Shown here in pieces: positions 49,061 through 64,000 of a stretch of 64,000 nt of DNA. Both the position numbers and the translations under genes were made by a program. The notes under the pieces are model-generated. The model did no database searches. It was not told where the DNA came from and worked only from the letters and a program-made list of their open reading frames with translations. How positions within the stretch are numbered: position 1 is the first letter of the stretch; each line of letters begins with the position of its first letter. The stretch lies in the sequence record MW481326.1. One strand, given 5' to 3'. This stretch comes from Escherichia phage vB_EcoM-Pr103Blw.

Positions 49061-51427
49061 ATGCGCATGGTAAACGACCACGCAGAAGTGATTAAGAGTT
49101 CAACTTCTCTAGAGACGTCTCAAGCACAGATTACAATGACACCTGAAATGTTCAGCCTTTTGAGTTCTGGTGTATACACCTTTAAAGAAAGGGCAGTGAT
49201 TCGTGAACTGTCATGTAACGCAGTAGATGCTCAGAAAGAAGCTGGAAAAGAGAACATCCCGTTCCATGTGCATTTACCTACTCGTTTTGAGCCTTACTTT
49301 GAAGTTCGTGATTTTGGAACCGGATTGACTCATGATAAAGTTATGAGTTTGTACCTAAACTATGGAGCTTCTACGAAGAATGACTCTAATGACTACATTG
49401 GTGCAATGGGTATCGGCTCAAAATCACCATTTGCAATTGCTCAGTCATTCACAGTGTCTAGCTATGTTGATGGTGTTGTTAATAAGTACTCTGTTTACCT
49501 TGAGAATGGTATCCCTCAAGTAACTAAGCTAACTACCAACCCAACGAATGAACCTAATGGTTTAGCTGTACGTGTAGCAGTTGCTGACCATCGTATTTCA
49601 AAGTTCTTTGAAGAGGCTGGTAATGTATACTCATACTTTGCTGTAAAACCAGAAAGTAATATCGAGTATGACGATGTATTAGCAGATATGAACGTCATTG
49701 CCCGTGAAGAAGGTGTTTATGATGCCATGATTCATAAGCAAAGCTGGCGTTCTAGTGGTAACAGGACAGAGTTTAATGTGGTGATGGGTAACATTGCCTA
49801 CCCTGTTAATATGGAAGCATTACTTGGTGATGATTTCTTCAAAGTATTGCCAGAATTTTTCCGTAGGAGCGTAGACCTTGTAAACATCTACATGCCTATT
49901 GGTTCAGTTGCTATTGCAGCTTCTCGTGAAGCATTGCAGATGAATGACACGACAAAAAACGTTATCATTGAGGCTACTAAAAAGATAACTGAAGCAATTA
50001 CAAAGGATGTTATCAAGAAAGTTAATAGCCAACCTACACTCATGGATGCTGCACAGGCTTATGCTGAGTTACGTTTGAACTCACGAGAGATGTTTAATGC
50101 TGTGTGTCCAAAGCTAGAGTGGGGCGGTGTTAAGCTTGATTCTCTGGAAGAAGAATTACTAAACATTCGTCGTGGAATTATCTACGCAGAAGACGGCTCA
50201 GTCATTTACGAACGTGACGGTAAAGGCAATATCAAGGTTGATAGGAACGGGAACAATATCCCTAAAGTAGATTATCTTTATGACCCAGTTGCTTATGTCA
50301 AGTTCAACTCTTTAGAGAGTAAGATTCGTGCAACATCGCTTTCCTACACTCAAGAGGCAAGTATGTTCAATATCTTTGGCGCAATGCGTAAAAGTCAAAT
50401 TGAACAGTTTTTGTTTGTTATAAATGACCGTCGAAATAAAAATGGTACTGAGAAGACTGTAGGACGCAACCAAATCTTGCGTGGTGCATGTCGAGACTAT
50501 GCCAGTGAGTCAAGTCTGTTTCACAGATACAATGGTATTGTCTTTGTATTCTCTACAGAGAAAGAGCTAGACGACTTAATCAATCTGCACAAACTTGATA
50601 AAAGCTTGTTAAAGATTGTGAAGATGTCTGACAAGGAACATCATTATCAGCGTAAAGAAGCTGTAAGAGGTGTTGTAAAACTCTGGAAAGCTGTTCCAGC
50701 AGAAGGTGTAGCTTCATACAAAGAGGTGTCAGAAGACTTAGATACGATTGAAGAACCTCAGCTTTACATTAAGGCAGTCGGTGACACAGTTGATGGTGAA
50801 TGTTTTTGCTCATCTCCAGAAGATGTAGCTAAGTCAGTTGCTAATGTTACAGGTAAGACAGTCTATGTTTTCCGAAAAGCAAATTGGAAAAAGATACCAG
50901 AAGACTGGATTGAAGTAGATGAGAAGCTCTTGAATGACAGCTTAACTGATGTTCACTGGATTAACCATAACAGGTATATGACACGTATCTATATGAATGG
51001 TGTCCTCGACCTTACAAGTAGTTGGATTATTGCCAGAAACTTTACGTTCAATAACAGGAAGATTTCTCGTGGCTATTGTTATTCACGGGATACAAACAAA
51101 ACTATCTTCTTAGAAGGTAATGAAGATGCTGTAGAGGCAATGTTTGGTAAAATCCAATACGTTGCTGCACCGTTTGCATATACTTACACTATTAGTAGGT
51201 TGCAAACTTTGAAAGACTGCCTTGACAATGATACAAAGCTTTACAAGAAAATTAAGAAAGCTGGTGACCGCATGGTCATTAAGGTGACAAACTACCTTTC
51301 AAAAAGAAAACAAGAAAACTTCTTGCTTTCTCATTTAGATTGGAATAAAGTGTCACCCATCGAAGTGAGTAAGTTCTTAGGCTTTGATGTGAAGTGTGTT
51401 CCAGAAGGGACTACAATTTACGATTAA
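49061..51427 (+). CDS. rIIA: rIIA protein (GHKL ATPase-like N-terminus)
   Basis: 788 aa; RAVIRELSCNAVDA, VRDFGTGLT and YIGAMGIGSKSPF parallel T4 rIIA N-terminal segments. Confidence 0.85.
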   Translation: MRMVNDHAEVIKSSTSLETSQAQITMTPEMFSLLSSGVYTFKERAVIRELSCNAVDAQKEAGKENIPFHVHLPTRFEPYFEVRDFGTGLTHDKVMSLYLNYGASTKNDSNDYIGAMGIGSKSPFAIAQSFTVSSYVDGVVNKYSVYLENGIPQVTKLTTNPTNEPNGLAVRVAVADHRISKFFEEAGNVYSYFAVKPESNIEYDDVLADMNVIAREEGVYDAMIHKQSWRSSGNRTEFNVVMGNIAYPVNMEALLGDDFFKVLPEFFRRSVDLVNIYMPIGSVAIAASREALQMNDTTKNVIIEATKKITEAITKDVIKKVNSQPTLMDAAQAYAELRLNSREMFNAVCPKLEWGGVKLDSLEEELLNIRRGIIYAEDGSVIYERDGKGNIKVDRNGNNIPKVDYLYDPVAYVKFNSLESKIRATSLSYTQEASMFNIFGAMRKSQIEQFLFVINDRRNKNGTEKTVGRNQILRGACRDYASESSLFHRYNGIVFVFSTEKELDDLINLHKLDKSLLKIVKMSDKEHHYQRKEAVRGVVKLWKAVPAEGVASYKEVSEDLDTIEEPQLYIKAVGDTVDGECFCSSPEDVAKSVANVTGKTVYVFRKANWKKIPEDWIEVDEKLLNDSLTDVHWINHNRYMTRIYMNGVLDLTSSWIIARNFTFNNRKISRGYCYSRDTNKTIFLEGNEDAVEAMFGKIQYVAAPFAYTYTISRLQTLKDCLDNDTKLYKKIKKAGDRMVIKVTNYLSKRKQENFLLSHLDWNKVSPIEVSKFLGFDVKCVPEGTTIYD

Positions 51428-51432
51428 AGTGT

Positions 51433-51462
51433 TTGACAAGGGGCTTCAAAGCCCCTTAGAAT
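51433..51462 (+). promoter_or_regulatory. sigma70-like promoter with hairpin in spacer
   Basis: TTGACA-18 nt-TAGAAT; spacer holds AAGGGGC-ttcaaa-GCCCCTT stem-loop; upstream of rIIB. Confidence 0.4.
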
Positions 51463-51506
51463 AGCCTTACAAAATGATTTATTAACTAACAAGAGAGAGT
51501 AATAAG

Positions 51507-53938: not shown

Positions 53939-53949
53939 GAGAAAAACTT

Positions 53950-54414: not shown

Positions 54415-54426
54415 GGTTAAGATACA

Positions 54427-54447: not shown

Positions 54448-54466
54448 CATTTCAGGAGATTGCTAA

Positions 54467-54814
54467 ATGACATTTAAAGAGTTCTGTCAAGCTACTTTCA
54501 TAATTGTTTTCTTAGTTGGGGCAGGTGTCTGGGGAGGATACTCTTACAGAGACTACCAAGTTGCTGAAGCTGAGTTAAGCAATGAGAAACTAATAAGTGT
54601 TGCTAAAGATGCTTATCAGGAAGGTTTAGCCACACTCAGCACCAATTACAAAAATGATTTGAAAGATGTGCTTGCTAAGAATAAGCACACAAAAGAGGTA
54701 CTAACATATGAAAAAACTAAGCCAGAGTTTTATAATGTTTGTGTTACTGATAATTATGTCAGGGTGTTCAACGAACAAAGTGAACAGTACATTCAAAAAC
54801 TACCAAGTAAGTGA
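54467..54814 (+). CDS. putative i-spanin (Rz-like)
   Basis: 115 aa; N-terminal TM (ATFIIVFLVGAGVWGGY) then coiled-coil periplasmic domain; o-spanin-like gene embedded at its 3' end. Confidence 0.5.
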   Translation: MTFKEFCQATFIIVFLVGAGVWGGYSYRDYQVAEAELSNEKLISVAKDAYQEGLATLSTNYKNDLKDVLAKNKHTKEVLTYEKTKPEFYNVCVTDNYVRVFNEQSEQYIQKLPSK

Positions 54815-54977
54815 GAGTGACAAGTACACTCAAGAAGAGTCAAGATTCACTGTCAAAGGTAATACTGGTAGTGATGTGGCAGCAGCCCTTGAGTTTTATC
54901 GTGATGGTTTTTACCAGTGCACAATCAAAGCTAATAACCTTATTGATATGATTTTATTAGGAAATAAACAGCAATGA
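54708..54977 (+). CDS. putative o-spanin (Rz1-like lipoprotein)
   Basis: 89 aa; lipoprotein signal with lipobox (LLIIMSGC); starts inside i-spanin gene in another frame. Confidence 0.5.
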   Translation: MKKLSQSFIMFVLLIIMSGCSTNKVNSTFKNYQVSESDKYTQEESRFTVKGNTGSDVAAALEFYRDGFYQCTIKANNLIDMILLGNKQQ

Positions 54978-55243
54978 CAGAGAATGAAGATACTTTTTAC
55001 GTAGAAGGGTACTTACTGTTACCGCGACCAAAAGAAACTTATATGCGAATTGACTTCATACCAACCATTATGGATAATGTGATGTGTCATATCTTTATGC
55101 AAGGTGTCACAGCACAGCTTAAGCATGTTGGTAAGGAGTGCAAAATAAAGGTTGACACTCATCCAGAAATCAAAGAGAATCACTACACATGGTTCTTACC
55201 AGATTCTAAAGAAATCTTAGCAGTTCTTAAAACGAGGAAATGA
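54974..55243 (+). CDS. hypothetical protein
   Basis: 89 aa, ATGA-coupled. Confidence 0.45.
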   Translation: MTENEDTFYVEGYLLLPRPKETYMRIDFIPTIMDNVMCHIFMQGVTAQLKHVGKECKIKVDTHPEIKENHYTWFLPDSKEILAVLKTRK

Positions 55244-55554
55244 TTATGCAATTCCAGCCAACAAATCGTGGATTTTCTTATGCAGAATTTAAAGATGCTA
55301 AAGGGGAAATTTGTACTTTACAAGAGAGTTCATCATACGAACCATGTATCTGGTTAGGTGCTAAAGAGGTCTCTGTTCAGTACCTAGATAATGGCTGGAA
55401 AGCACTTGATATCCCAGCATTAGTAGGTAAAGACTTTGTAGGTAATCAAAGAATGAAGCTCAATCAAGAACAGGTAAAAGAATTGTTGCCGTACCTTCAA
55501 TACTTTGCTGAAAATGGTGAATTACCAACAGAGGAACTTACAAATGCAGATTAA
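55240..55554 (+). CDS. hypothetical protein
   Basis: 104 aa, ATGA-coupled. Confidence 0.45.
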   Translation: MIMQFQPTNRGFSYAEFKDAKGEICTLQESSSYEPCIWLGAKEVSVQYLDNGWKALDIPALVGKDFVGNQRMKLNQEQVKELLPYLQYFAENGELPTEELTNAD

Positions 55555-55870
55555 TGGAAGAGACTTTGTAGCCGTTTACTACGAGAAAGGTAAAGAAGTT
55601 GGCGTAGCGCAAGTATCTTATGGCAATGGTAAGTGGCTATATGGAACAATCGCAGTAGTCGGAACAAGAAGTGATACAAAAACTTTTAAAGATTGTGTTG
55701 ACCTTCTTGAAGAATCCATCCAGAATCATTGGTGTCTGATATGGATGACTGATAACGAAGTGATGGAGCGTTTCAAAAAGATTGGTATCAGCATTGACAG
55801 TATTGAGCATGTTGATTTATATGAGCTAACTGAGAAGGTAAACTATGAAAGTAATACTAGCCAGAGATAA
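55544..55870 (+). CDS. hypothetical protein
   Basis: ATG 55544 with GAGGA SD (track start 55505 overlaps previous gene by 50 nt). Confidence 0.4.
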   Translation: MQINGRDFVAVYYEKGKEVGVAQVSYGNGKWLYGTIAVVGTRSDTKTFKDCVDLLEESIQNHWCLIWMTDNEVMERFKKIGISIDSIEHVDLYELTEKVNYESNTSQR

Positions 55871-56078
55871 AAAGACCCGTAAGATTGTAAGTTCAGCAGT
55901 ATTCATAGGAAGAGATGAAGTCGTTCCGTTTGCAGGGGAAGATGTGTTAACTTATAAGAAGGGATTAAAACGTAAATTCAGTGACCGTTTACGTGGCTTC
56001 ATCTCTGAACCATTAGAAGACTTTAAAAGTCGCTGTGGTAAAGGCATCATCACTCAAGAGGTAATTATTCATGGCTGA
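55845..56078 (+). CDS. hypothetical protein
   Basis: 77 aa. Confidence 0.4.
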   Translation: MKVILARDKKTRKIVSSAVFIGRDEVVPFAGEDVLTYKKGLKRKFSDRLRGFISEPLEDFKSRCGKGIITQEVIIHG

Positions 56079-56271
56079 TTTCTGCAAAGACTGTTCTATC
56101 GAAATGTTTGGACGTGATACAGGTGACTTAAAAGGTCTCATCACTGAAGATGATTTTAAAGCTGGCTACGCAATGCCAGTAATCTGTGAAGGCTGTGGGT
56201 GCATCTGGGTAGACCACGAAGGACAGCGTGTAAAACCTTCAGAAGATAAAGAATCTTGGGAGAGATGTTAA
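56071..56271 (+). CDS. small zinc-ribbon protein
   Basis: 66 aa with CKDC ... CEGCGC cysteine pairs. Confidence 0.4.
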   Translation: MADFCKDCSIEMFGRDTGDLKGLITEDDFKAGYAMPVICEGCGCIWVDHEGQRVKPSEDKESWERC

Positions 56272-57057
56272 ATGGGTATTGTAAAAATCATCAATGGTGA
56301 TATCTTTGCTGCATTTGATAAAGGTAAGTTTGACATCATTGGTCATGGTTGTAACTGCATGAACCTAATGGGTGCAGGTATCGCTGACAAGATTTCTAAA
56401 CTTTACCCAAAAGCATATGAGACCGATACAGAAGTTTATCTATATGCAGGTGGTATAGGACACAAACCCTGTGAAAATTTACTGGGTAATTTCTCTGTAG
56501 CACGTTTAAAACAAGGTCGTATAGCCAACCTTTACACTCAGCTTAAGACTGGTAAAGATGCCCGATACAGTGCTTTAGAGTTATCTTTGAAACAGCTTAA
56601 CAGATACTGTGAAGTTAATCAGTTGAAGAAAGTTGGTTTACCTATGATTGGCGCAGGTATCGGTGGGTTGGACCCTCAAGCCGTCACAGTTATCATCAAT
56701 CAGGTGATGAAGAGTGTAGATGTTTATCTATATGTCTATGAAGGAGAGATGTACCACAAGTTACGCTCAGGTTGGAAGAACTACTGTGAACCAGAATACT
56801 TTGCAGGTGTAGTTGTGTTCACGGATAATGCAGTTACCCTCTTCAGACGAAGAAAAGGTAAGATACATCAAAGTAACCCTCCGGTTGAGAAGATGTCTCT
56901 AAGTAACGCTCTAGTTACCCACCTGTCGAAGAGCAATCACAGGATAGCCGTAACATTTGGCAGTGATGCAGATACATATATTTATGCAAGAACTGATGAG
57001 GATATTGAGACGGTCTTCTCTTCACCGGAAGTTACCTTCTTAGACGCAAAGAACTAA
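56272..57057 (+). CDS. macro-domain protein (ADP-ribose binding/processing) with C-terminal extension
   Basis: N-terminus NGDIFAAFDKGKFDIIGHGCNCMNLMGAGIA and later LPMIGAGIGGL match macro-domain Gly-rich ADP-ribose-binding loops. Confidence 0.6.
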   Translation: MGIVKIINGDIFAAFDKGKFDIIGHGCNCMNLMGAGIADKISKLYPKAYETDTEVYLYAGGIGHKPCENLLGNFSVARLKQGRIANLYTQLKTGKDARYSALELSLKQLNRYCEVNQLKKVGLPMIGAGIGGLDPQAVTVIINQVMKSVDVYLYVYEGEMYHKLRSGWKNYCEPEYFAGVVVFTDNAVTLFRRRKGKIHQSNPPVEKMSLSNALVTHLSKSNHRIAVTFGSDADTYIYARTDEDIETVFSSPEVTFLDAKN

Positions 57058-57131
57058 GAAACTCTGTATAATATTCACAATAGACTAAGCCTTTCTTATC
57101 TGGTAAATTTTTCAGGTAAGGAGGGCTTTTT

Positions 57132-57320
57132 CATTTCAGGATTGTGCAGGTATATATCTATAGAGAAATCTGTAGAGAGAATTTTGAACTCCAAAGAGAA
57201 AATTCATTTTCAAACTGTGCAGGTAATCTCCAAAGAGCTTTTTCATTTTCAAAACGTGCAGACCCCGCTCAGGTCGGGCAAGAAAAATCATTTTAGAATT
57301 GTGCAGGTAGGTTTTTATAG
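57132..57320. repeat. array of four direct repeats (consensus TTCATTTTCAAAAcTGTGCAGGTA)
   Basis: Copies near 57132, 57205, 57243, 57288; non-coding (track ORFs on both strands here only translate the repeat). Confidence 0.6.
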
Positions 57321-57330
57321 AGAGCCAGAC

Positions 57331-57365
57331 CAACCCCTCTCCCCCTCTTACTCCCCCTCTCCCCA
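57331..57365 (-). other. G-quadruplex-capable tract on - strand (C-rich on + strand)
   Basis: + strand CCCCTCTCCCCCTCTTACTCCCCCTCTCCCC gives four G-runs of >=4 with short loops on - strand; unusual in AT-rich genome. Confidence 0.45.
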
Positions 57366-57484
57366 AAAGTCAAGAGAAAAATTTGTAGCGGATTGAAAAA
57401 TAATTCTTGATTTGTGTTCTGTTTTGTGGTAGTCGTGTGCGCACGTTTCATTACAGTTTTCCAAAAATATTTTTAAAATTTTTC

Positions 57485-57578
57485 TTGACTCTTTGAACGG
57501 GGTTATCTAGTATTTGCATCAACGGGGAGGGAATGACCTTTCCCACTAAGTAAAGTCCTTAAATTAGGAGATTCAAAA
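57485..57578 (+). promoter_or_regulatory. early promoter plus conserved leader cassette, copy 1
   Basis: TTGACT-17 nt-TAGTAT, then leader TCAACGGGGAGGGAATGACCTTTCCCACTAAGTAAAGTCCTTAAATTAGGAGATTCAAAA-ATG. Confidence 0.65.
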
Positions 57579-57959
57579 ATGGCATATCGTGCACCTAAAT
57601 TCATCAACAAAGACAACTTTCGCAACGCACTGGAGAAGTCACTTGATGAGAATTTTAAAGGTAACGTTATTGTTGTTCACTCGTTCAATTTTAAGTATGA
57701 TATCAACGGGAATAAAATCAACCATTACACGGCAACCATGTTAGATGGCACTCTTTCAAGTGAAAAAACAATTCTACATGCACTTGCTGGGCGTGGAAAA
57801 AACCTGATAAGGTGCGATAAGAGACGTTATCAGGGTGGCGCATATGGTTACGATGACGCTATTTATCATCTTGAAAATATGGGCTATCAAGTAGAAAAAG
57901 CTGGAGTATCACAAATCATCGGGAGCGATGGTTATGTAACAATCTTCAAAATTAACTGA
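57579..57959 (+). CDS. early protein, unknown function
   Basis: 126 aa; starts right after conserved leader/RBS. Confidence 0.6.
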   Translation: MAYRAPKFINKDNFRNALEKSLDENFKGNVIVVHSFNFKYDINGNKINHYTATMLDGTLSSEKTILHALAGRGKNLIRCDKRRYQGGAYGYDDAIYHLENMGYQVEKAGVSQIIGSDGYVTIFKIN

Positions 57960-58048
57960 TAAAGTACTTTACAAGGGGCTTATAGTTCGATAAAGTAAGC
58001 CCCAGATAAAGAGCTTTACCACTCAATCCTAAATTGGAGAACTAAAAA
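57960..58048 (+). promoter_or_regulatory. intercistronic palindrome-hairpin element, copy 1
   Basis: Palindrome TAAAGTACTTTA, hairpin GGGGCTTA...TAAGCCCC, then AGATAAAGAGCTTTACCACTCAATCCTAAATTGGAGA...ATG. Confidence 0.55.
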
Positions 58049-58339
58049 ATGGCTATTATCAAAAACGTTGTAATTACTGCAAAGACTCGTGATGACGCTC
58101 GCGTTATGGCTAAAAAGTTAGGCGGGAAAGTGGTTGACAACGGAAAACAATCTGCTGTAAGGTGGGGCGTGAAGGCTGATAAGCAGTTGAGGTTAAAAAA
58201 TTCACCGATAAACCTTTTTACATGTGTAAACACTATCGGGAAGACAAATGTATACACGAAAAAGGCATACATTAGACGCGTAGCATTAACATCCCCCATT
58301 CGTACAATGAGAAGTTATGCAAAGCTGAAAATTAACTGA
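58049..58339 (+). CDS. early protein, unknown function (basic)
   Basis: 96 aa; follows element copy 1; ends ...KLKIN like preceding gene (...IFKIN). Confidence 0.6.
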   Translation: MAIIKNVVITAKTRDDARVMAKKLGGKVVDNGKQSAVRWGVKADKQLRLKNSPINLFTCVNTIGKTNVYTKKAYIRRVALTSPIRTMRSYAKLKIN

Positions 58340-58427
58340 TAAAGTACTTTACAGGGGGCTTAAAAGTTGATATCTTAAGCCCCAGATAAAGAGCTTTACC
58401 ACTAAATCCTAAACTGGAGATTCAAAA
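58340..58427 (+). promoter_or_regulatory. intercistronic palindrome-hairpin element, copy 2
   Basis: TAAAGTACTTTA + GGGGGCTTAA...TTAAGCCCC + conserved RBS leader. Confidence 0.55.
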
Positions 58428-58724
58428 ATGAAACTATCAAATAAAGTCCGTGAAAATCTAAGCAAGTTACTTAATAAAATTGATTTCATTGAAACATCAA
58501 GGAATAGTCATGATGTTATGGAATGGTTACACGGAAAAATCAAAGGCCGTCGTGTAGTGATTTGCTTATGGAATAGTTGCAGGGAATATAAAAAACCTGT
58601 ATTGCAAGTCAATATCTATGATGATACTTTTAAAAGCCCTGTAAAGTCTAAAAGCGATTTATTAGAATCCTATGAGATAACTGTAAATGGCAAAGTATCA
58701 CGTAAAGAGGAAACACCATGCTAA
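58428..58724 (+). CDS. early protein, unknown function
   Basis: 98 aa. Confidence 0.6.
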   Translation: MKLSNKVRENLSKLLNKIDFIETSRNSHDVMEWLHGKIKGRRVVICLWNSCREYKKPVLQVNIYDDTFKSPVKSKSDLLESYEITVNGKVSRKEETPC

Positions 58725-59050
58725 TGACTGGTATCACTGCAATCATTGCCATTTTCGCGCTATATAAGGCATATAAAGCCTATAATCTAGCAAATAAGGC
58801 AATCACACAGCAGGTTAGCAATAACCTTGTAGAGAGCTTTCTAGGGCGTTTAAGTGATGAGCAAATAAAGCGGCTAGAGATGAGCTTCAGATATAAAGCG
58901 AAAACCTATCAAATAAGTGACATCTTCAAAGATGATTTTCAGTTAGTTGATGATTATAATTCTCTGATAAATGCTTTAAATATCAGTGACTTAAAAGACT
59001 ACTACGCTGTAATTGTTCAAGAATTGAGCAAACGAAAACAAAACTGTTGA
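58718..59050 (+). CDS. early membrane-anchored protein, unknown function
   Basis: 110 aa; N-terminal hydrophobic segment (LMTGITAIIAIFALY). Confidence 0.5.
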   Translation: MLMTGITAIIAIFALYKAYKAYNLANKAITQQVSNNLVESFLGRLSDEQIKRLEMSFRYKAKTYQISDIFKDDFQLVDDYNSLINALNISDLKDYYAVIVQELSKRKQNC

Positions 59051-59138
59051 CACTGGTTTTTAGATAGATTAAATTACACATCAACGGGGAGGGAATGACC
59101 TTCCCCACTAAATAAAGTCCTAAACTGGAGATTCTAAA
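59047..59138 (+). promoter_or_regulatory. early promoter plus conserved leader cassette, copy 2
   Basis: TTGACA-17 nt-TAAATT then leader with GGGGAGGGAATGACCTTCCCC hairpin and AGGAGA... wait-free RBS GGAGATTCTAAA-ATG. Confidence 0.65.
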
Positions 59139-59411
59139 ATGTATACTACTAACAACGGTCGCACTTTAAATGTCACACTACGTCACTATGTAGATGGTGT
59201 CATGCACTTTGAAGACTTACAAGCTGAACAACATATCTTAGATTGGCAAGTCGCAGGACTCCAAAAAACTGCTACGGGATACGGTAAAAAAATTCCAACC
59301 AGTTGGAAAGTACACTACGAAGGACGTTTGCGCAGAATTTATCAGGATGTGCAAAGCAATAGTGCATCGAGTTACATTATAGTAAAAGGTAAAAAACTGC
59401 ATTTAGTGTAA
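59139..59411 (+). CDS. early protein, unknown function
   Basis: 90 aa. Confidence 0.6.
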   Translation: MYTTNNGRTLNVTLRHYVDGVMHFEDLQAEQHILDWQVAGLQKTATGYGKKIPTSWKVHYEGRLRRIYQDVQSNSASSYIIVKGKKLHLV

Positions 59412-59495
59412 AGTACTTTACAGGGGGTTATCAAGCTGATAAGATAACCCCAGATAAAGAGCTTTACCACTCAATCCTAAATTGGAGATTCTAAA
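59409..59495 (+). promoter_or_regulatory. intercistronic palindrome-hairpin element, copy 3
   Basis: TAAAGTACTTTA overlapping stop codon; hairpin GGGGTTATC...GATAACCCC (stem co-varies relative to other copies). Confidence 0.55.
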
Positions 59496-59900
59496 ATGGC
59501 TATTAATAACCGTGAATTATCAATCTTAAAAGCACGTTTGACCGTCAACCGGATTAATGTTCTGACATCATCAGCGCCTGATGAGACATTGCACAACATT
59601 ATCGGAAAGATTCAAAGTGTTATCTTAGACGTTGAAAACGTAAAAAACTCATTGGCTGACGTTGCAGCAGGTATCACGCTAGACGGTGCGCAATATGAAA
59701 TGATTGATATGTTAGGCAAATCAAAGGTTATGAATAAAGAGTTAGACCTAAAAATGTTTCGATTTGCCGTGAAAGTATGGCTATCTGTCGAGTATGATGC
59801 TAATTTTGCAATCGCTGATTTCTTCGCCACTTGGTTACAACGTAATTTGACAAATCACGATTTTCGTGGCATCTGCGATGCAATTTATGCAGAACTCTAA
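59496..59900 (+). CDS. early protein, unknown function
   Basis: 134 aa. Confidence 0.6.
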   Translation: MAINNRELSILKARLTVNRINVLTSSAPDETLHNIIGKIQSVILDVENVKNSLADVAAGITLDGAQYEMIDMLGKSKVMNKELDLKMFRFAVKVWLSVEYDANFAIADFFATWLQRNLTNHDFRGICDAIYAEL

Positions 59901-59909
59901 AAAATTTTG

Positions 59910-60003
59910 TTGACACTGGTTTTTAGATAGATTAAATTACACATCAACGGGGAGGGAATGACCTTCCCCACTAAATAAAGTCCTTAAACTAGGAGATTCA
60001 AAA
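59910..60003 (+). promoter_or_regulatory. early promoter plus conserved leader cassette, copy 3
   Basis: About 95 bp nearly identical to copy 2 (TTGACACTGGTTTTTAGATAGATTAAATTACACATCAACGGGG...). Confidence 0.65.
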
Positions 60004-60207
60004 ATGGCTATTATTAACGGTTTAACCATTGAAACTACACACATCAAAGATATCAAAGTTGGTGATATAGTCCTTTCCCACGGCGTAGAAAAAACTGTCA
60101 CTGCAAAGGATATCAAAGAGGATTCTTTCATGGGTAGGACTCTCTTCGGTGATTCTTATTGCTTAGGTTATCTTGCAGTTTTAAAAGTTGTCAAAATTAA
60201 CAAATAA
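60004..60207 (+). CDS. early protein, unknown function
   Basis: 67 aa. Confidence 0.55.
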   Translation: MAIINGLTIETTHIKDIKVGDIVLSHGVEKTVTAKDIKEDSFMGRTLFGDSYCLGYLAVLKVVKINK

Positions 60208-60291
60208 AGTACTTTACAAGGGGCTTATAAGTCTGTAAAGTAAGCCCCAGATAAAGAGCTTTACACAATCCTTAAACTAGGAGATTCAAAA
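60205..60291 (+). promoter_or_regulatory. intercistronic palindrome-hairpin element, copy 4
   Basis: TAAAGTACTTTA overlapping stop; hairpin GGGGCTTAT...TAAGCCCC; conserved RBS leader. Confidence 0.55.
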
Positions 60292-60834
60292 ATGAAATGC
60301 TATCACGGAACTACTCAAGAAAATTTCCTCAACCTGATTAATAACGGTGATAAACCATCAGGCGCATGGAATTGTTCGGATATGGACGGCAATTTTTACG
60401 TGTATCCAGAAAATAAAATCTATGGCGACGATGAGGAAGAAATAGCATCAGAAGGTATCCAACAAGCTCTAGGAAATGCCACTATCACCGCAGCTTTCCA
60501 GATGAAAACCCAAAATATTGTTATCTTAGAACTCGATATTCCAGAGGATGAGCTGAATGATGATTATTCTTGTGATAATATGTCGAGTGTGGCAAGTTTT
60601 ACAGAGTACTTTGATGTAAATTGGATTAAAAAGGTCTATACAACAGAGTTTAACGCTATGTATTCACCTTTTTGTCTTCCTTCATTGGATAACCCAAATT
60701 TAAACTATCTTGATGAGTCTCTGGAGCTTCTTGCTAAAAGTGTTCAACAGTCGGACAGTATTCAGGTTTTTTGTGACATCATGGATACACTGACAGGGAA
60801 CATTGCAGAAGAGGATTTAAAGAGCTTTTTCTAA
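60292..60834 (+). CDS. early protein, unknown function (acidic)
   Basis: 180 aa. Confidence 0.6.
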   Translation: MKCYHGTTQENFLNLINNGDKPSGAWNCSDMDGNFYVYPENKIYGDDEEEIASEGIQQALGNATITAAFQMKTQNIVILELDIPEDELNDDYSCDNMSSVASFTEYFDVNWIKKVYTTEFNAMYSPFCLPSLDNPNLNYLDESLELLAKSVQQSDSIQVFCDIMDTLTGNIAEEDLKSFF

Positions 60835-60866
60835 AAACCTATGCAATCACCTTATAAACACTAATC

Positions 60867-60887
60867 AGCCCCTTGTAGGGGCTTTTA
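60867..60887 (+). terminator. terminator-like hairpin
   Basis: AGCCCC-ttgta-GGGGCT followed by TTTTA. Confidence 0.45.
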
Positions 60888-60900
60888 GGGGGCTTAAATC

Positions 60901-61134
60901 ATGCTTACAACCATTTATCTCATCCTTTCCATTTGTAACGGCCATTCATGCGATTTTAAAGGGCTTGAGGAGTTCACAGGAAGTAAAGAAAATGCCATTC
61001 AAGTTTGTCAGATAGCAAGGCAAGACTATCCCGCCAGTGATGACATACAATGCTACTTTAAGACAGAAGATGAAGAAGGCATTTATTTTGATAGTGTTGA
61101 CGGTCAATATGAAATTATCATTGAAAAAGACTAG
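60901..61134 (+). CDS. early protein, unknown function
   Basis: 77 aa; GGGGGC SD. Confidence 0.5.
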   Translation: MLTTIYLILSICNGHSCDFKGLEEFTGSKENAIQVCQIARQDYPASDDIQCYFKTEDEEGIYFDSVDGQYEIIIEKD

Positions 61135-61225
61135 ACAAGCCTGATAAAAGCTTGTAGAGTGTCAATCAACGGGGAGGGAATAACCTTCCCCACTAAGTAA
61201 AGTCCTTAAACTAGGAGATTCTAAA
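61132..61225 (+). promoter_or_regulatory. early promoter plus conserved leader cassette, copy 4
   Basis: TAGACA-17 nt-TAGAGT overlapping upstream stop, then leader with GGGGAGGGAATAACCTTCCCC hairpin. Confidence 0.55.
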
Positions 61226-61567
61226 ATGGCTTATGTAACTGTAATTACCGATAAAGAGAATTCATCTTGGTCAACTCAGGTTAGTGATAAGATGTCACCT
61301 ATGCAGTGTCTAAAATACTTTGAGCAGTGGAACAAAGGCGAGGATGTAAGCCCCTTTCAGGTAATGCAAATCATCCATACAGATAACGAAGGGAATAAAA
61401 CGACACTGAATAGTGAGTACTATGCAAGCCGTTTTGAAACGAGAAGTAAAACAATGAAGCTTTTACGTGAATCCGGCTATTCTCACATTGCCGCGCTAAT
61501 ATGGGATGACCTGCTGAAAAGCCAGCGTATCAGCTATGTAAAACCTGAAAAAATATTCATCAGTTAA
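61226..61567 (+). CDS. early protein, unknown function
   Basis: 113 aa. Confidence 0.6.
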   Translation: MAYVTVITDKENSSWSTQVSDKMSPMQCLKYFEQWNKGEDVSPFQVMQIIHTDNEGNKTTLNSEYYASRFETRSKTMKLLRESGYSHIAALIWDDLLKSQRISYVKPEKIFIS

Positions 61568-61599
61568 TCAATAACTTATAAAAAACTTTAAAAAATTAC

Positions 61600-61628
61600 T
61601 TGACGATACCCCTTGACAATAGTACATT
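61600..61628 (+). promoter_or_regulatory. sigma70-like promoter
   Basis: TTGACG-17 nt-TACATT in 220-bp gap. Confidence 0.4.
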
Positions 61629-61696
61629 TGTTCGAGGGGGTTTATCTAAAAGGGATTCACTTAAAAGATTCTTTATAGATAAGCTTAAAAAATTGC

Positions 61697-61789
61697 TTGC
61701 AATCAACTATCAAAACAAGTAAATTACTAATCAACGGGGAGGCGATAACCTTCCCCACTAAATAAAGTCCTTAAACTAGGAGATTCAAA
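61697..61789 (+). promoter_or_regulatory. early promoter plus conserved leader cassette, copy 5
   Basis: TTGCAA-17 nt-TAAATT then leader (hairpin GGGGAGGCGATAACCTTCCCC). Confidence 0.6.
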
Positions 61790-62320
61790 ATGAACAAGTT
61801 CAAAGCTATCAACTATATTCGTTCAAATGCTGTAATGTCTAAGCCTGTTAAAGATACCTACGAATTTCGCTGCAACGGTGTACACTTCGCAACCATCACT
61901 AAATCAGAAAACGGGGCTTATTACGTTCATCGTCGTAATGTTTCGACCGTTGTAGTCTCTCACTTTATGCAAGCTGTAGCAGAATTATTACCGTTATTCT
62001 TAGAGATTTACTTAGATGAGTGTAAAAACGTTCGCAACCATGTTAAAAACCTTTTAAATGGTTATAAGATGGCTTATGAACGTTCTATCAAGAATCTTAA
62101 CAAGTTCTATAAAGCCCCTGAAAATACTGTATCAATAGCTTATGATGTAAGCGGTGAAATGGCCAACCTCTCTAATGTAGAACAAATTAGCCTTTATGAT
62201 TTACGTCCTAGTGGCTACTCTAAGACTCTCGGTGAAGGTTTATCCTTCAATATCAAGAACTTAGAAAAAACTTTAAAAGATATTGAAAAAGATATTGACG
62301 AGACAATCAAAAGTCTGTAA
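61790..62320 (+). CDS. early protein, unknown function
   Basis: 176 aa. Confidence 0.6.
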   Translation: MNKFKAINYIRSNAVMSKPVKDTYEFRCNGVHFATITKSENGAYYVHRRNVSTVVVSHFMQAVAELLPLFLEIYLDECKNVRNHVKNLLNGYKMAYERSIKNLNKFYKAPENTVSIAYDVSGEMANLSNVEQISLYDLRPSGYSKTLGEGLSFNIKNLEKTLKDIEKDIDETIKSL

Positions 62321-62382
62321 ATTGTCAATCAACGGGGGATAACCTCCCCCACTAAACAAAATCCTAAACTGGAGTTATCAAG
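62295..62382 (+). promoter_or_regulatory. early promoter plus conserved leader cassette, copy 6
   Basis: TTGACG-17 nt-TAAATT (-10 overlaps stop codon); shortened hairpin GGGGGATAACCTCCCCC. Confidence 0.6.
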
Positions 62383-62646
62383 ATGGAAAACGTAGAATTA
62401 ACCACACTTTTACAAATTGCAACCGACAAAGAAGATGTAGCATTATTCCACCGTATCGAAAGTGATTTGTTCAATGGTGAAATCATTAAAGAATCTTACG
62501 AAGTTGTCGGATTCAAAGATGGTAAAGCATTTGGCTTTTTTGACCTCGACAAAAGCAAAGCGGTTACAATGTACGATGTTCTATCTTGTGAAATTCTGAC
62601 AAAATACAACGAAAAAAGGCTTGCAACCTACGCCAATATGCAGTAA
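62383..62646 (+). CDS. early protein, unknown function
   Basis: 87 aa. Confidence 0.6.
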   Translation: MENVELTTLLQIATDKEDVALFHRIESDLFNGEIIKESYEVVGFKDGKAFGFFDLDKSKAVTMYDVLSCEILTKYNEKRLATYANMQ

Positions 62647-62713
62647 ATTACTAATCAACGGGGAGGGAATGACCTTCCCACTAAACAAAGTCCTAAACTG
62701 GAGAATCTAAATT
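62621..62713 (+). promoter_or_regulatory. early promoter plus conserved leader cassette, copy 7
   Basis: TTGCAA-17 nt-TAAATT then leader with GGGGAGGGAATGACCTTCCC hairpin. Confidence 0.6.
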
Positions 62714-62962
62714 ATGTCAACTATCCGCGTAACTGTTAATGCTTATGGCTGCCACAAACTTGATGCAAAATTCGATATCGGTGGAACAGATAACACCTTT
62801 GACCTTATCAAAATGCTGATTCAGCAGGTGATACCAGATTATAACCCTACTGATGACTTCTGGAAAGATGCCGTAAAAGAAGCCATAAACGAGGAATCTC
62901 ACTACCATTATTGGGGTGACTTGATTGTCTCTCTATACTACAGCAAACAAGGCTACAACTAA
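62714..62962 (+). CDS. early protein, unknown function
   Basis: 82 aa. Confidence 0.6.
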   Translation: MSTIRVTVNAYGCHKLDAKFDIGGTDNTFDLIKMLIQQVIPDYNPTDDFWKDAVKEAINEESHYHYWGDLIVSLYYSKQGYN

Positions 62963-63000
62963 TCGACGCAACGGGGCTAAATAGCCCCAGATACCTTTAC

Positions 63001-63024
63001 AGCCCCTTAAATGGGGCTTTTTTA
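63001..63024 (+). terminator. rho-independent terminator closing the early gene array
   Basis: AGCCCC-ttaaat-GGGGCT followed by TTTTTT; preceded by a second hairpin GGGGCT-aaat-AGCCCC at 62974-62988. Confidence 0.6.
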
Positions 63025-63039
63025 CGTCTATCGAATCCT

Positions 63040-64000
63040 TATACAATCCCTTTCCTTTCTAGAATCTTATCAGACCTTAAAAAGCAATAACTCTATAGTC
63101 TACTCTATAACCTCTTATCAAATCAACTTAAATATAAGCCCATAACCCGAAAGGGAAGGGCAACCACTAAAATGCTCTATAAAGCTCTATAACAGCCTTA
63201 TCAACCTAACTTAAGCAATCATATTAACCCACTCTAAAAAGCCCTTTATAGAGCTTCCTAGAGCCTTAAAAGAATCTTATAAGGGTACAAGCTTATAAGC
63301 TGGCTAGTATCTTGTGAATACCTAAACAACCCCTTGATAGTCACTAAAAAGTATGTTATAGGGGCTATAGAGTTACTTCAAAGTTACGTAAAAAGAGCTA
63401 TAAAGTTACGTAAATGCTAGCCCCCTTAACATTTTCTTAACAATTTCTTAACAAACCCTACATAGTTATGCTTGTTAGAGACTTGTTAGCCCCTTGTTAA
63501 ATCTCTGTTAAGACCACGTAAAAGCCTTGTAAGAGTCTTTGACATATCCTTAAAAGCCTCTGTAAAGCCCTATAAAGAGCTATCCATACAGTTGAGGGGT
63601 AAATACTAGGGAGAGCCTTAAAAGAGCTTACAAGGGGCTGTATAGGGCTTTTAAGAGGTATGTTTAAGAGTTCACTAAGAAAGGAAAGGGAACGATAAGA
63701 AAAGAGATAGTGACCATGTTAATAGCTTGTTAAAAAGATTAAACACTTGTTAGAAACTTGTTAATTATCTTAATAAAATAACTCTTTAAAATTAACTTGT
63801 TAGCTCTTATTAGTCATCTGTTAAGACTCTGTAAAGACTATTCAGCACTTGTTAGAAAACTGTTACATCCTTGTTAGTTCTGTTAAGAGACTGTTAAGAC
63901 CTTTGAAGAGTTGTTAAGAGCTTGTGAGAACTGTTAAGAGATTGTTAAGGATATTTTAAAATTTTGCAAAGTACTTGTAAGGGAGTTGTTAAGGGCTACC
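63040..64000. repeat. non-coding region dense in short degenerate repeats (CTATARAG and yTGTTARr families)
   Basis: No ORF of 60 aa or more; more than 20 copies of TGTTAAG/TGTTAGA-like heptamers, from about 63840 spaced every 10-12 bp; also TTACGTAA x2 and CTATAAAG/CTATAGAG copies. Confidence 0.6.

What the first reader, a model, noticed from the sequence alone, without database searches (positions are those of the whole stretch)
57960..60291. Four intercistronic elements combining a perfect palindrome with a co-varying hairpin
Between the first and second gene of several early operons sits TAAAGTACTTTA (a perfect 12-bp palindrome, often overlapping the stop codon), then a GC-rich hairpin whose two arms change together between copies (GGGGCTTA/TAAGCCCC versus GGGGTTATC/GATAACCCC) with variable loops, then AGATAAAGAGCTTTACC and a conserved RBS. 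Compensatory changes that keep pairing argue for selection on the structure. The hairpin has no T-tract, so it is not a classical intrinsic terminator; candidates are an RNase III or RNase E processing site, a differential mRNA stability element, or (with the palindrome) a protein operator or anti-termination site.
Basis: seen in the sequence. Interest (0 to 1): 0.55.

Follow-up and report, generated by a model that had tools for sequence, protein, structure and literature searches.

The report
Promoter-in-hairpin cassettes between early phage genes
The four repeats are compact gene-expression cassettes of a Felix O1-like phage, each a host-type promoter written inside a conserved RNA hairpin, and they closely resemble the 'PeSL' promoter/stem-loop cassettes that shuffle small genes in T4-like phages, so they are a new example of a known kind of element.

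Summary
The window is a Felixounavirus (93% identical to phage wV8). It has exactly four copies of a ~90-nt intergenic element at 57960, 58340, 59409 and 60205.

1. The "perfect palindrome" is not an independent site. It is the 5' strand of a lower stem that pairs with TAAAGAGCTTTA, inside "AGATAAAGAGCTTTACC". The whole element folds into one ~62-nt, 20-bp irregular hairpin. Compensatory changes in relatives support both stems, and U·G wobbles put the structure on the + strand.

2. All 77 distinct copies, from 18 genomes in three Ounavirinae genera, carry TTTACA, then 17 nt (18 in two copies), then TAnnnT. The only invariant bases of the "variable" loop are the −12 T and −11 A. This is a σ70-type promoter nested in the hairpin, and the predicted start is the A of AGATAAAG.

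Indels between related genomes break at these cassettes (16 of 19 breakpoints). The same gene can sit behind either cassette type.

This architecture matches the PeSLs of T4-type phages, which have not been reported outside them in the papers I could search. What the hairpin does in RNA (attenuator, RNase III site or 3'-end protection) is unresolved. Promoter activity is inferred, not measured.

The parts
57948..58048 (+). Cassette copy 1. It runs from the last four codons (K-I-N-stop) of ORF 57579-57959 to the base before ATG 58049.
   Evidence: Repeat family D2; covariance model hit at 87.2 bits; RNA fold -25.3 kcal/mol, z -4.8.
57960..57971 (+). Copy 1: 5' strand of the lower stem (the 'palindrome' TAAAGTACTTTA). 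It pairs with 58007-58018.
57968..57973 (+). Copy 1: -35-like hexamer TTTACA.
   Evidence: invariant in 77 of 77 distinct copies.
57975..58003 (+). Copy 1: upper stem-loop. Arms are GGGGCTTAT (57975-57983) and GTAAGCCCC (57995-58003), with an 11-nt loop.
57991..57996 (+). Copy 1: -10-like hexamer TAAAGT, spanning the loop and the 3' arm. The predicted transcription start is A58004.
   Evidence: the TAnnnT pattern is invariant across copies. The start site is inferred from spacing.
58007..58018 (+). Copy 1: 3' strand of the lower stem, TAAAGAGCTTTA.
58328..58427 (+). Cassette copy 2. Palindrome 58340-58351; -35 at 58348-58353; upper stem 58355-58363 with 58375-58383; -10 TATCTT at 58371-58376 with TGn before it; predicted start A58384; 3' lower strand 58387-58398; ATG 58428.
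   Evidence: covariance model hit at 88 bits.
59397..59495 (+). Cassette copy 3. Palindrome 59409-59420, overlapping stop codon TAA 59409-59411; -35 at 59417-59422; upper stem GGGGTTATC 59424-59432 with GATAACCCC 59443-59451; -10 TAAGAT at 59440-59445 with TGn before it; predicted start A59452; 3' lower strand 59455-59466; ATG 59496.
   Evidence: fold -29.7 kcal/mol, z -5.25; covariance model hit at 73.9 bits.
60193..60291 (+). Cassette copy 4. Palindrome 60205-60216, overlapping stop codon TAA 60205-60207; -35 at 60213-60218; upper stem 60220-60228 with 60240-60248; -10 TAAAGT at 60236-60241; predicted start A60249; 3' lower strand 60252-60263; ATG 60292.
   Evidence: covariance model hit at 80.7 bits.
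51423..51472 (+). Distant relative in the rIIA-rIIB gap: TAAAGTGTTTGACA, then hairpin GGGGCTTCAAAGCCCC inside the spacer, then TAGAAT (TTGACA-N18-TAGAAT, 11 of 12 consensus matches).
   Evidence: covariance model hit at 21.5 bits, E 0.012.
59036..59138 (+). Example of the sister cassette type D1: TTGACA-N17-TAAATT, then hairpin GGGGAGGGAATGACCTTCCCC in the 5' leader, then the same leader and SD as the studied cassette. Other copies start at 57474, 59899, 61121, 61686 and 62610, with a leader-only relative at about 62335. D1 alternates with the studied cassette and is interchangeable with it.

Best explanation
Each element is a self-contained early-gene expression cassette of the PeSL type (promoter-early stem-loop).

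At the DNA level it is a promoter for the host sigma70 RNA polymerase. It has an A/T-rich upstream region that holds the stop codon of the preceding ORF, a -35 hexamer TTTACA, a 17-bp spacer that often ends in TGn, and a -10 TAnnnT. A 6-7-nt GC-rich discriminator follows. The predicted start is the A of AGATAAAG. A ~45-nt leader then runs to a GGAG Shine-Dalgarno and ATG.

Written over the same ~62 nt, on the sense strand, is an RNA hairpin that can form only in transcripts reading through from the upstream gene. Its parts are:
- outer lower stem UAAAGU/GCUUUA;
- an A·A mismatch;
- inner lower stem CUUUA/UAAAG;
- a 3x3 internal loop, CAN/AGA;
- a 9-11-bp G-rich upper stem;
- a loop that carries the -10.

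I infer that this hairpin ends, attenuates or processes read-through RNA. It would leave the upstream message with a protective 3' hairpin, while the embedded promoter gives the downstream ORF its own expression. The most specific guess is a single RNase III cut on the 3' side of the internal loop. That cut would give nearly the same 5' end as promoter initiation.

Because ~100-nt near-identical cassettes flank each small ORF of unknown function, they also act as homology patches for gain, loss and swapping of ORF modules.

What is shown: the sequence architecture, the conservation pattern, the pairing covariation and the breakpoint association. What is inferred: promoter activity, the start site, and what the hairpin does.
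For: 1. Promoter signature.
- All four window copies match TTTACA-N17-TAnnnT.
- So do 77 of 77 distinct copies from the window plus 17 loci in Felixounavirus, Mooglevirus and Kolesnikvirus. Two copies have an 18-nt spacer.
- At least ten different -10 hexamers occur.
- In alignment A2 the invariant positions from the loop onward into the 3' arm include exactly -12 T, -11 A and -7 T. TTTACA is invariant too.
- TG sits at -15/-14 in about 40% of copies.
- The distance from -35 to -10 is fixed even though stem and loop lengths differ.

2. RNA hairpin.
- Every window copy folds into the same long hairpin, at -25 to -30 kcal/mol and z -4.0 to -5.25.
- RNAalifold predicts the same three helices on its own.
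- 95.6% of cells are paired. Covariation is 0.140 against 0.061 in shuffles (0 of 500 reach it) and 0.04 or less for slid partners.
- Pair 7-58 is GC 51, UA 7, AU 1, GU 2. Pair 20-45 is GC 54, UA 11. Pair 26-39 has four pair types.
- U·G wobbles at pair 22-43 (40 of 65) and pair 8-57 (52 of 65) would be A·C mismatches on the other strand.
- The covariance model scores the + strand about twice as high as the - strand.

3. Modularity.
- 16 of 19 indel breakpoints between the window and eight related genomes fall in D1 or D2 cassettes, which cover 21% of the region (P about 8e-9).
- ORF 61226 follows a D1 cassette here, but its wV8 homologue, gene 24, follows a D2 cassette. ORF 57579 likewise follows D1 here and D2 in LF82P1 and LNA1.
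- Copy number ranges from 3 (Felix O1) to 10 (L036).
- Recombination scars exist: Mordin has two cassettes in tandem with no ORF between them, and L036 has a cassette fused right after the ATG of the preceding one.
- The flanking ORFs have no Pfam domain and match only PHROGs of unknown function.

4. Precedent. PeSLs of phages RB49 and phi1 have the same layout:
- the stop codon lies in an A/T-rich stretch;
- a sigma70 promoter is present;
- a GGGG...CCCC stem-loop with G-T pairs most often sits between -35 and -10 or overlaps the -10;
- an SD and ATG follow.
They were shown to work as promoters and as terminators/attenuators, and to mediate ORF shuffling (PMC2839356). The T4/PST promoter consensus is TTTACW-N17-TAYWAT (PMC4122927).
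Against: - I found no transcription start, 3'-end or expression data for these sites in any Ounavirinae phage. Promoter activity rests on sequence alone.
- The -10 hexamers are individually weak (3-5 of 6). The consensus scan finds many such matches by chance (58 found against 39.5 expected).
- The hairpin has no U-tract, so its attenuator role cannot be the canonical intrinsic mechanism.
- A promoter-initiated transcript lacks the 5' half of the hairpin, so the two functions act on different RNAs. Why they should overlap is not explained.
- Many stem pairs are invariant and therefore uninformative. The copies are paralogues and orthologues, not independent samples. Three of 12 copies with a changed position 7 are not compensated.
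- Felix O1 end-point RT-PCR is mixed. Genes 16 and 20, downstream of two copies, peak at 5 min, but gene 17, downstream of a third, peaks at 25 min.
Confidence: 0.65

Rival explanations
1. A purely RNA-level intercistronic element with no promoter function. Polycistronic early mRNA would be cut by host RNase III (or another nuclease) in the long hairpin, or stabilised by it. The TTTACA and TA...T conservation would then reflect recognition of the RNA by a protein.
For: - The helix is about two turns (20 bp plus a mismatch and a 3x3 internal loop). [quoted passage not shown]
- Covariation supports both stems.
- The element always lies directly after a co-oriented ORF.
Against: - The invariant bases match sigma70 geometry exactly (hexamer, 17 nt, TAnnnT, frequent TGn). 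The total length is fixed although stem and loop lengths vary.
- The cassette substitutes for the D1 cassette, which carries a much closer sigma70 match (TTGACA-N17-TAAATT), in front of the same genes.
- No Rfam family matches.
- RNase III proximal-box and distal-box rules were not evaluated.
Confidence: 0.15
2. A DNA-level protein-binding site. The palindrome TAAAGTACTTTA, or the GGGG...CCCC inverted repeat, would be an operator for a phage regulator or a target of a recombination protein. The apparent RNA structure would be a by-product.
For: - There are two TAAAG-NN-CTTTA motifs 47 bp apart, flanking an inverted repeat.
- The PeSL authors speculated that GGGG...CCCC could be bound by a recombination protein (PMC2839356).
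Against: - Only 25 of 77 distinct copies keep a perfect palindrome. One tandem copy lacks the left half entirely.
- G to U or A changes in the left half of the first motif are matched by C to A or U changes in the right half of the second motif. This breaks both palindromes but keeps the pairing between the two motifs.
- Within one genome, different arm sequences co-vary, which a single binding protein would not require.
- U·G wobbles are strand-specific.
Confidence: 0.05
3. A canonical intrinsic (Rho-independent) terminator that closes the upstream transcription unit.
For: - A stable GC-rich hairpin lies directly after a stop codon.
- The wV8 GenBank record even annotates a 'Rho-independent terminator' (on the - strand) over one copy.
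Against: - The upper stem is followed by AGAUAAAG and the whole hairpin by CCACUCAAUCC. Neither is a U-tract.
- The terminator scan does not call these sites. It does call true terminators with T-runs nearby, at 57087, 63001, 54426 and 52630.
- No gene runs on the - strand here.
Confidence: 0.04
4. A selfish miniature repeat (REP- or MITE-like) that spreads through intergenic gaps and has no function for the phage.
For: Copies are many, nearly identical, and vary in number between genomes. They are homogenised within lineages: all Mooglevirus rows share T at columns 17 and 22, and all Kolesnikvirus rows share GGTG/CACC.
Against: - Every copy has the same orientation and the same position between a stop codon and an SD/ATG.
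- Promoter positions are invariant while neighbouring bases drift, and pairing is maintained by compensation.
- The element is conserved across three genera, at 78-100% identity in a 76-nt query.
Confidence: 0.05

Closest known systems
PeSLs (promoter-early stem-loops) of T4-type phages RB49/phi1, T4/PST and KVP40/nt-1 (Arbiol et al. 2010, PMC2839356; Comeau et al. 2014, PMC4122927)
   Same: - The upstream stop codon lies in an A/T-rich stretch.
- The promoter is sigma70-type; T4/PST use the same TTTACW-N17-TAYWAT flavour.
- A GGGG...CCCC stem-loop with G·T/U pairs sits between -35 and -10 and overlaps the -10.
- An SD and ATG lie at the 3' end.
- Many copies are clustered among small ORFs of unknown function.
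- Indels break at the cassettes.
   Different: - The host is a different phage subfamily (Ounavirinae). In the literature I could search, PeSLs were described only in T4-likes.
- Here the stem-loop is the top of a longer 20-bp helix. Its lower stem pairs the -35/upstream region with transcript positions +4 to +15, with covariation.
- Geometry is far more uniform (one architecture, against five PeSL subclasses).
- Promoter, terminator and mini-circle activities are untested here.
RNase III processing sites of the phage T7 early region (R0.3 to R1.3; R1.1 is the model substrate)
   Same: - They are intercistronic hairpins in early phage mRNA.
- The helix is about two turns, interrupted by an internal loop.
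- The expected product is an upstream mRNA that ends in a protective hairpin (PMC1540722; the T7 layout is from my own knowledge).
   Different: - T7 sites are not promoters.
- There is no sequence similarity.
- Cleavage is untested here.
- Proximal-box and distal-box antideterminants were not evaluated.
Intrinsic terminators and REP/BIME-type 3' stabiliser hairpins
   Same: They are stable GC-rich hairpins just downstream of a stop codon. They can block 3'-5' exonucleases and attenuate read-through.
   Different: - There is no U-tract.
- A promoter is embedded.
- Orientation is fixed and coupled to a downstream SD/ATG.
'Direct repeats' noted in the Felix O1 genome paper and in the wV8 GenBank record (DR_1, DR_7, DR_9)
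   Same: These are the very same sequences. The Felix O1 paper lists the 57-bp repeat CTTTACATGGGGCTTAAAAGTCTGTAAAGTAAGCCCCAGATAAAGAGCTTTACCACT between genes 15/16 and 19/20 (PMC3185647). wV8 annotates them as repeat_region features.
   Different: They were reported only as repeats. No structure, promoter or function was assigned. The Felix O1 paper lists five other putative promoters and says that regulation is not known.

Membership tests
PeSL (promoter-early stem-loop cassette) | A sigma70-like promoter: -35, about 17 bp, -10. | tested here: met
   TTTACA-N17(18)-TAnnnT in 4 of 4 window copies and in 77 of 77 distinct copies. The -12 T, -11 A and -7 T are invariant.
PeSL (promoter-early stem-loop cassette) | A stable stem-loop (often GGGG...CCCC, with G-T pairs) within or overlapping the promoter. 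| tested here: met
   The upper stem starts 1 nt after the -35 and overlaps the -10. U·G pairs are present.
PeSL (promoter-early stem-loop cassette) | The upstream gene's stop codon lies in an A/T-rich region 5' of the -35, and an SD plus start codon lie at the 3' end. | tested here: met
   Stop codons abut or overlap the element. The 16 nt upstream of the -35 are 75% A+T on average. GGAG and ATG follow.
PeSL (promoter-early stem-loop cassette) | Many copies clustered in a plastic region of small ORFs, with indels between relatives breaking at the cassettes. | tested here: met
   16 of 19 breakpoints fall in cassettes. Copy number is 3 to 10 per genome. The ORFs have no known function.
PeSL (promoter-early stem-loop cassette) | Demonstrated promoter activity, terminator/attenuator activity, and mini-circle formation. 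| not testable with these tools
   This needs reporter fusions, 5'/3'-end mapping and inverse PCR. No published data were found.
RNase III processing site (T7 R1.1 type) | A double helix of about two turns, possibly from coaxial stems, with an internal loop or bulge that limits cleavage. | tested here: met
   11-bp lower stem (with one A·A mismatch), a 3x3 loop and a 9-bp upper stem in all four copies. The criterion comes from PMC1540722.
RNase III processing site (T7 R1.1 type) | No inhibitory base pairs in the proximal and distal boxes, and actual cleavage by RNase III. | not tested
   The box rules were not applied. Cleavage needs an experiment.
Intrinsic (Rho-independent) terminator | A GC-rich hairpin followed at once by a U-tract. 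| tested here: not met
   The hairpin is followed by AGAUAAAG (upper stem) or CCACUCAA (whole hairpin). The terminator scan does not call these sites.
Palindromic protein operator | Dyad symmetry conserved within the site across homologues. | tested here: not met
   The palindrome is perfect in 25 of 77 copies. Compensation occurs between the two motifs, not within one.
T4 middle (MotA-dependent) promoter | A MotA box (TGCTT-type) about 12 bp upstream of a sigma70 -10. | tested here: not met
   Mooglevirus and Kolesnikvirus copies read GTGCTTTACA, but the gap from TGCTTTA to the -10 is 19 nt, and the window copies read TACTTTA. The spacing rule is from my own knowledge. The Felix O1 paper reports no T4-like polymerase modifiers.

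The most novel reading that the evidence does not exclude
The cassette is a truly dual-coded element. The same 62 nt specify a sigma70 promoter in DNA and, in read-through RNA, a U-tract-less processing or attenuation hairpin. The cut, on the 3' side of the internal loop (AGA), would coincide with the promoter's own start site. The downstream ORF would then get the same 5' leader whether its RNA was initiated there or processed there, and the upstream ORF would always end in a protective hairpin. This would be a designed insulator that makes each small gene a portable, context-independent module.
Probability: 0.15. Interest if true: 0.6.

Novelty: new member of a known kind. Interest (0 to 1): 0.4.

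Why it matters
- It gives a concrete, testable answer to a question the Felix O1 genome paper left open: how the early region is transcribed. That paper listed five putative promoters and said that how transcription gets past the many terminators, by read-through or by secondary promoters, is not known. Here nearly every small early ORF has its own host-type promoter cassette.
- It extends the PeSL idea (portable promoter/stem-loop linkers that drive modular gene shuffling) beyond T4-like phages to Ounavirinae. This group is widely used for Salmonella and E. coli typing, biocontrol and therapy.
- The strict overlap of a promoter with a covarying 20-bp RNA helix is a clean case of two codes in one sequence. 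It could also serve as a compact insulating part for phage engineering.

Tried and rejected
- **Rfam scan of 50000-64000 at E up to 1.** Nothing overlapped the elements.
- **Searches for Ounavirinae transcriptome or start-site data.** None found. One search was wasted on terms that were too generic. The phiEa21-4 genome paper could not be read, so I cannot exclude that it discusses these motifs. Its GenBank record has no regulatory feature on them.
- **IMG/VR scan with the 14-mer AGATAAAGAGCTTT.** It returned mostly chance single matches. Only five loci were real relatives.
- **RegB lead.** Mordin gp003 is annotated 'similar to T4 endoribonuclease RegB', and the early SDs are GGAG. The Felix O1 homologue is described as the protein of the 'vs-regB intergenic region', that is T4 Vs.1, a lysozyme-like protein. 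I dropped the lead without testing it further.
- **MotA-box resemblance.** Rejected on spacing (see the membership test).
- **Minus-strand function.** The reverse strand scores about half as well in the covariance model, would have A·C mismatches, and has no genes.
- **DNA cruciform.** Judged unlikely because the loops are 10-12 nt and the lower stem spans about 45 nt. Not formally testable here.
- **Felix O1 RT-PCR timing.** Examined as evidence for independent promoters and found too inconsistent to use.
Full report
**Source and observation**

The 3-kb stretch around the finding is 93% identical to Escherichia phage wV8 and matches 246 records, nearly all Felix O1-like phages. The window is therefore a Felixounavirus genome (subfamily Ounavirinae). 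The finding lies in the block of small rightward ORFs downstream of rIIA/rIIB.

TAAAGTACTTTA occurs exactly four times in the 64 kb, at 57960, 58340, 59409 and 60205, all on the + strand. Shuffles give a mean of 0.57, and 0 of 100 reach four. Each copy abuts or overlaps the stop codon of the preceding ORF. A covariance model built later finds these four sites and no other strong site. They score 74-88 bits on the + strand and 27-40 bits on the - strand.

**Prior record**

The sequences are not unknown. The wV8 GenBank record marks them as repeat_region DR_1, DR_7 and DR_9. The Felix O1 genome paper lists a 57-bp direct repeat, CTTTACATGGGGCTTAAAAGTCTGTAAAGTAAGCCCCAGATAAAGAGCTTTACCACT, between genes 15/16 and 19/20 (PMC3185647). 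Neither source assigns a function. That paper names five other putative promoters and states that how transcription is organised and timed is not known.

**The palindrome is half of a stem**

Folding each copy as RNA gives the same single long hairpin. UAAAGU pairs with GCUUUA, followed by an A·A mismatch. CUUUA then pairs with UAAAG. A 3x3 internal loop (CAA or CAG opposite AGA) follows, and then a 9-bp upper stem with a 10-11-nt loop. Energies are -25.2 to -29.7 kcal/mol, with z-scores of -4.0 to -5.25. The 12-nt palindrome is thus the 5' strand of a lower stem.

**Comparative test of the structure**

I collected the element from 17 further loci:
- Felixounavirus: wV8, LF82P1, LNA1, Felix O1 and four IMG/VR genomes.
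- Mooglevirus: Mordin, Moogle, Sf19, ESh20, Silverhawkium and one IMG/VR genome.
- Kolesnikvirus: Ep030, ST-3 and MM7.

They gave 77 distinct copies and 65 distinct cores.

On the 65-row alignment A2 the three-helix structure performs as follows:
- 95.6% of cells are paired.
- The covariation score is 0.140, against 0.061 ± 0.005 in shuffles (0 of 500 reach it) and 0.04 or less when partners are slid.
- In the outer lower stem, pair 7-58 is GC in 51 rows, UA in 7, AU in 1 and GU in 2.
- In the upper stem, pair 20-45 is GC in 54 rows and UA in 11. Pair 26-39 shows UA, AU, UG and GC.

RNAalifold predicts the same helices without being told.

The U-A variants at pair 7-58 break both TAAAG..CTTTA motifs as palindromes but keep them complementary to each other. 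They occur in unrelated cassette types:
- LNA1: TAAATTAC...GTGATTTA.
- Mordin, Sf19 and Silverhawkium: TAAATTGC...GAGATTTA.
- Felix O1: GAGATTTC...GAGATTTA.
- Silverhawkium: TAAAATGC...GAATTTTA.

U·G wobbles at pair 22-43 (40 of 65) and pair 8-57 (52 of 65) would be A·C mismatches on the other strand. The structure therefore belongs to the sense strand, most simply to RNA.

Only 25 of 77 distinct copies keep a perfect palindrome. This argues against a symmetric protein operator.

Caveats:
- Eight of the 20 pairs never vary.
- The rows are related paralogues and orthologues.
- Three of 12 copies with a changed position 7 are uncompensated.

**A promoter inside the hairpin**

The consensus scan lists all four copies as TTTACA-N17-TAAAGT, TATCTT, TAAGAT and TAAAGT. 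On its own this is weak evidence, because the scan found 58 sites where 39.5 were expected by chance.

The comparative pattern is what counts:
- Every one of the 77 distinct copies has TTTACA, then 17 nt (18 in two MM7 copies), then TAnnnT.
- At least ten different hexamers occur, including TAAAGT, TATCTT, TAAGAT, TAGTAT, TAATCT, TACAGT, TATAGT, TAAAAT, TAACTT and TAATAT.
- In A2 the invariant columns are TTTACA, four columns in the 5' arm, the T and A at -12/-11 in the loop, the T at -7 in the 3' arm, several further stem columns and GATAAA. Invariant -12 T, -11 A and -7 T is the textbook signature of a sigma70 -10 element (established knowledge).
- TG at -15/-14 occurs in about 40% of copies.
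- The -35 to -10 distance stays fixed although stems range from 8 to 11 bp and loops from 7 to 12 nt.

The -10 is followed by 6-7 nt (A)AGCCCC and then AGATAAAG. The likely start is therefore the A at 58004, 58384, 59452 and 60249. This start site is inferred.

The 16 nt upstream of the -35 average 75% A+T. In three of the four window copies the repeat reaches into the upstream ORFs, which all end K-I-N(-K)-stop (AAAATTAAC). I read this directly.

**Context: a second cassette type and modular exchange**

The same region holds a second repeat family, D1. It consists of TTGACA-N17-TAAATT, then the hairpin GGGGAGGGAATGACCTTCCCC, then the same leader, SD and ATG. Copies start at 57474, 59036, 59899, 61121, 61686 and 62610. 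Nearly every small ORF between 57.5 and 63 kb is therefore preceded by one cassette type or the other.

I compared 57000-63300 with eight related genomes. Sixteen of 19 distinct indel breakpoints lie within 10 nt of a cassette, while cassettes so padded cover 21% of the region (binomial P about 8e-9). Examples:
- wV8 carries an extra [gene 23 + D2] unit, joined through a 24-nt shared leader at 61203-61226. The ORF at 61226 follows D1 here but D2 in wV8.
- LNA1 lacks ORF 58049-58339, which lies between two D2 copies here.
- LF82P1 lacks 59141-59908, which lies between two D1 copies here.
- Felix O1 lacks 60009-61165, which lies between two D1 copies here.

Copy number runs from 3 (Felix O1) to 10 (L036). 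Mordin has two cassettes in tandem with no ORF between them. One IMG/VR genome has a cassette fused right after the ATG of the previous one.

The ten ORFs around the elements have no Pfam domain and match only PHROGs of unknown function.

Lineage-specific homogenisation is also visible in A2. All Mooglevirus rows have T at columns 17 and 22. All Kolesnikvirus rows have GGTG/CACC. This fits frequent exchange among copies.

**Comparison with known systems**

This layout matches the promoter-early stem-loops (PeSLs) described in T4-type phages phi1 and RB49 (PMC2839356):
- The upstream stop codon lies in an A/T-rich stretch.
- The promoter is sigma70-type.
- An SD and ATG follow.

Those cassettes were shown to be strong promoters and effective terminators/attenuators in lacZ assays. 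They also mediate insertion, deletion and replacement of ORFs.

The follow-up paper gives TTTACW-N17-TAYWAT as the promoter consensus of the T4/PST set (PMC4122927). That is the same -35 flavour as here. In the literature I could search, PeSLs are described only for T4-like phages. I found nothing linking them to Felix O1-like phages.

The Ounavirinae version differs in three ways:
- It has the covarying lower stem, which pairs the -35/upstream region with positions +4 to +15 of the promoter's own transcript.
- Its geometry is very uniform.
- It has no U-tract.

**How it most likely works**

Shown: the architecture, the conservation pattern, the pairing covariation and the breakpoint association.

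Inferred:
- Host RNA polymerase initiates at the A of AGATAAAG, giving each downstream ORF its own early expression.
- Transcripts that read through from the upstream ORF contain both halves of the element and fold into the long hairpin. Selection on that fold implies it matters for those RNAs.
- The hairpin is not a canonical terminator. Genuine terminators with T-runs exist nearby, at 57087, 63001, 54426 and 52630, and were called by the same scan that skipped these sites.
[quoted passage not shown] A cut on the 3' side of the internal loop would give almost the same 5' end as promoter initiation.

Attenuation without a U-tract (as reported for a PeSL stem-loop), or a simple exonuclease barrier after cleavage in the A/U-rich leader, are equally open. 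I put about 0.65 on the composite promoter/stem-loop cassette reading as a whole, and about 0.15 on the specific coincident processing-and-initiation model.

**Wider pattern in the window**

A -35 hexamer followed at once by a G-rich stem (TTKACANGGKG) occurs eight times against 0.48 expected. Besides the four copies, the sites are:
- 51433: the rIIA-rIIB gap, TTGACA-N18-TAGAAT with GGGGCTTCAAAGCCCC in the spacer.
- 41168: here the stem is followed by TTTTTT, so it is a real terminator overlapped by a promoter-like site.
- 25901.
- 23122, on the - strand.

These were seen. Nesting promoters and hairpins thus looks like a general habit of this genome. The studied repeat is its most stereotyped form.

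**Verdict**

The element is best filed as a new member of the PeSL kind of composite regulatory cassette, in a phage subfamily where it had been noted only as a "direct repeat". It has an added lower helix that is worth testing. Interest is moderate (0.4). It is informative for phage genome evolution and for annotating Felix O1-like therapeutic phages, but it is not a new principle.

Noticed in passing
window 57474-57578, 59036-59138, 59899-60003, 61121-61225, 61686-61789, 62610-62713 (leader-only relative at about 62335-62385): A second repeat family, D1. It has a strong sigma70-like promoter (TTGACA-N17-TAAATT in two copies), then the hairpin GGGGAGGGAATGACCTTCCCC in the 5' leader, then the same leader/SD as the studied cassette. 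It alternates with the studied cassette and replaces it in front of the same genes in other genomes.
   Followed up: partly
window 51433, 41168, 25901 (+ strand) and 23122 (- strand): Other sites where a -35 hexamer is followed at once by a G-rich stem (TTGACAAGGKG). There are 8 such sites in the window against 0.48 expected. The one at 41168 has a 10-bp stem followed by TTTTTT, so it is a true terminator overlapped by a promoter-like site.
   Followed up: partly
window 63435-63993: A dense array of short direct repeats of the type CTTGTTA / TGTTAAGAG (repeat families D5, D9, D10, D14, D15). It lies in a stretch that corresponds to a ~1.6-kb gap without annotated genes in wV8 (record 13884-15531). 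It looks iteron-like, and could be a replication origin or another protein-binding array.
   Followed up: no
window 57131-57323: Three to five direct repeats of ~34-36 nt (CTCCAAAGAG...CATTTTCAAACTGTGCAG and TCATTTCAGGATTGTGCAGG). They lie between the strong terminator at 57087-57128 and the first D1 promoter. Function unknown.
   Followed up: no
window 57948-57959, 58328-58339, 60193-60207: Three unrelated upstream ORFs end with the same codons, K-I-N(-K)-stop (AAAATTAAC...). The cassette homology therefore reaches about 12 nt into the coding sequence and dictates the C-termini of different proteins.
   Followed up: partly
L002 (Citrobacter phage Mordin) 3410-3958; L128 (Felix O1) 286-834: Mordin gp003 is annotated as 'similar to T4 endoribonuclease RegB'. 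The Felix O1 homologue is described as the protein of the T4 'vs-regB intergenic region' (Vs.1, lysozyme-like). The RegB label is probably an annotation slip. All early SDs here are GGAG, which is the T4 RegB target motif.
   Followed up: partly
L001 (wV8) 10083-10127 and 11602-11622, - strand: The wV8 record annotates minus-strand 'Rho-independent terminators' over one D2 hairpin and one D1 hairpin. No T-tract follows either, and there are no minus-strand genes there. These are probably prediction artefacts.
   Followed up: partly
L002 (Mordin) 8631-8784; L036 near 6864: Two cassettes lie in tandem with no ORF between them (Mordin). In an IMG/VR Mooglevirus genome, a cassette is fused directly after the ATG of the preceding cassette. 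Both look like scars of cassette-to-cassette recombination.
   Followed up: partly
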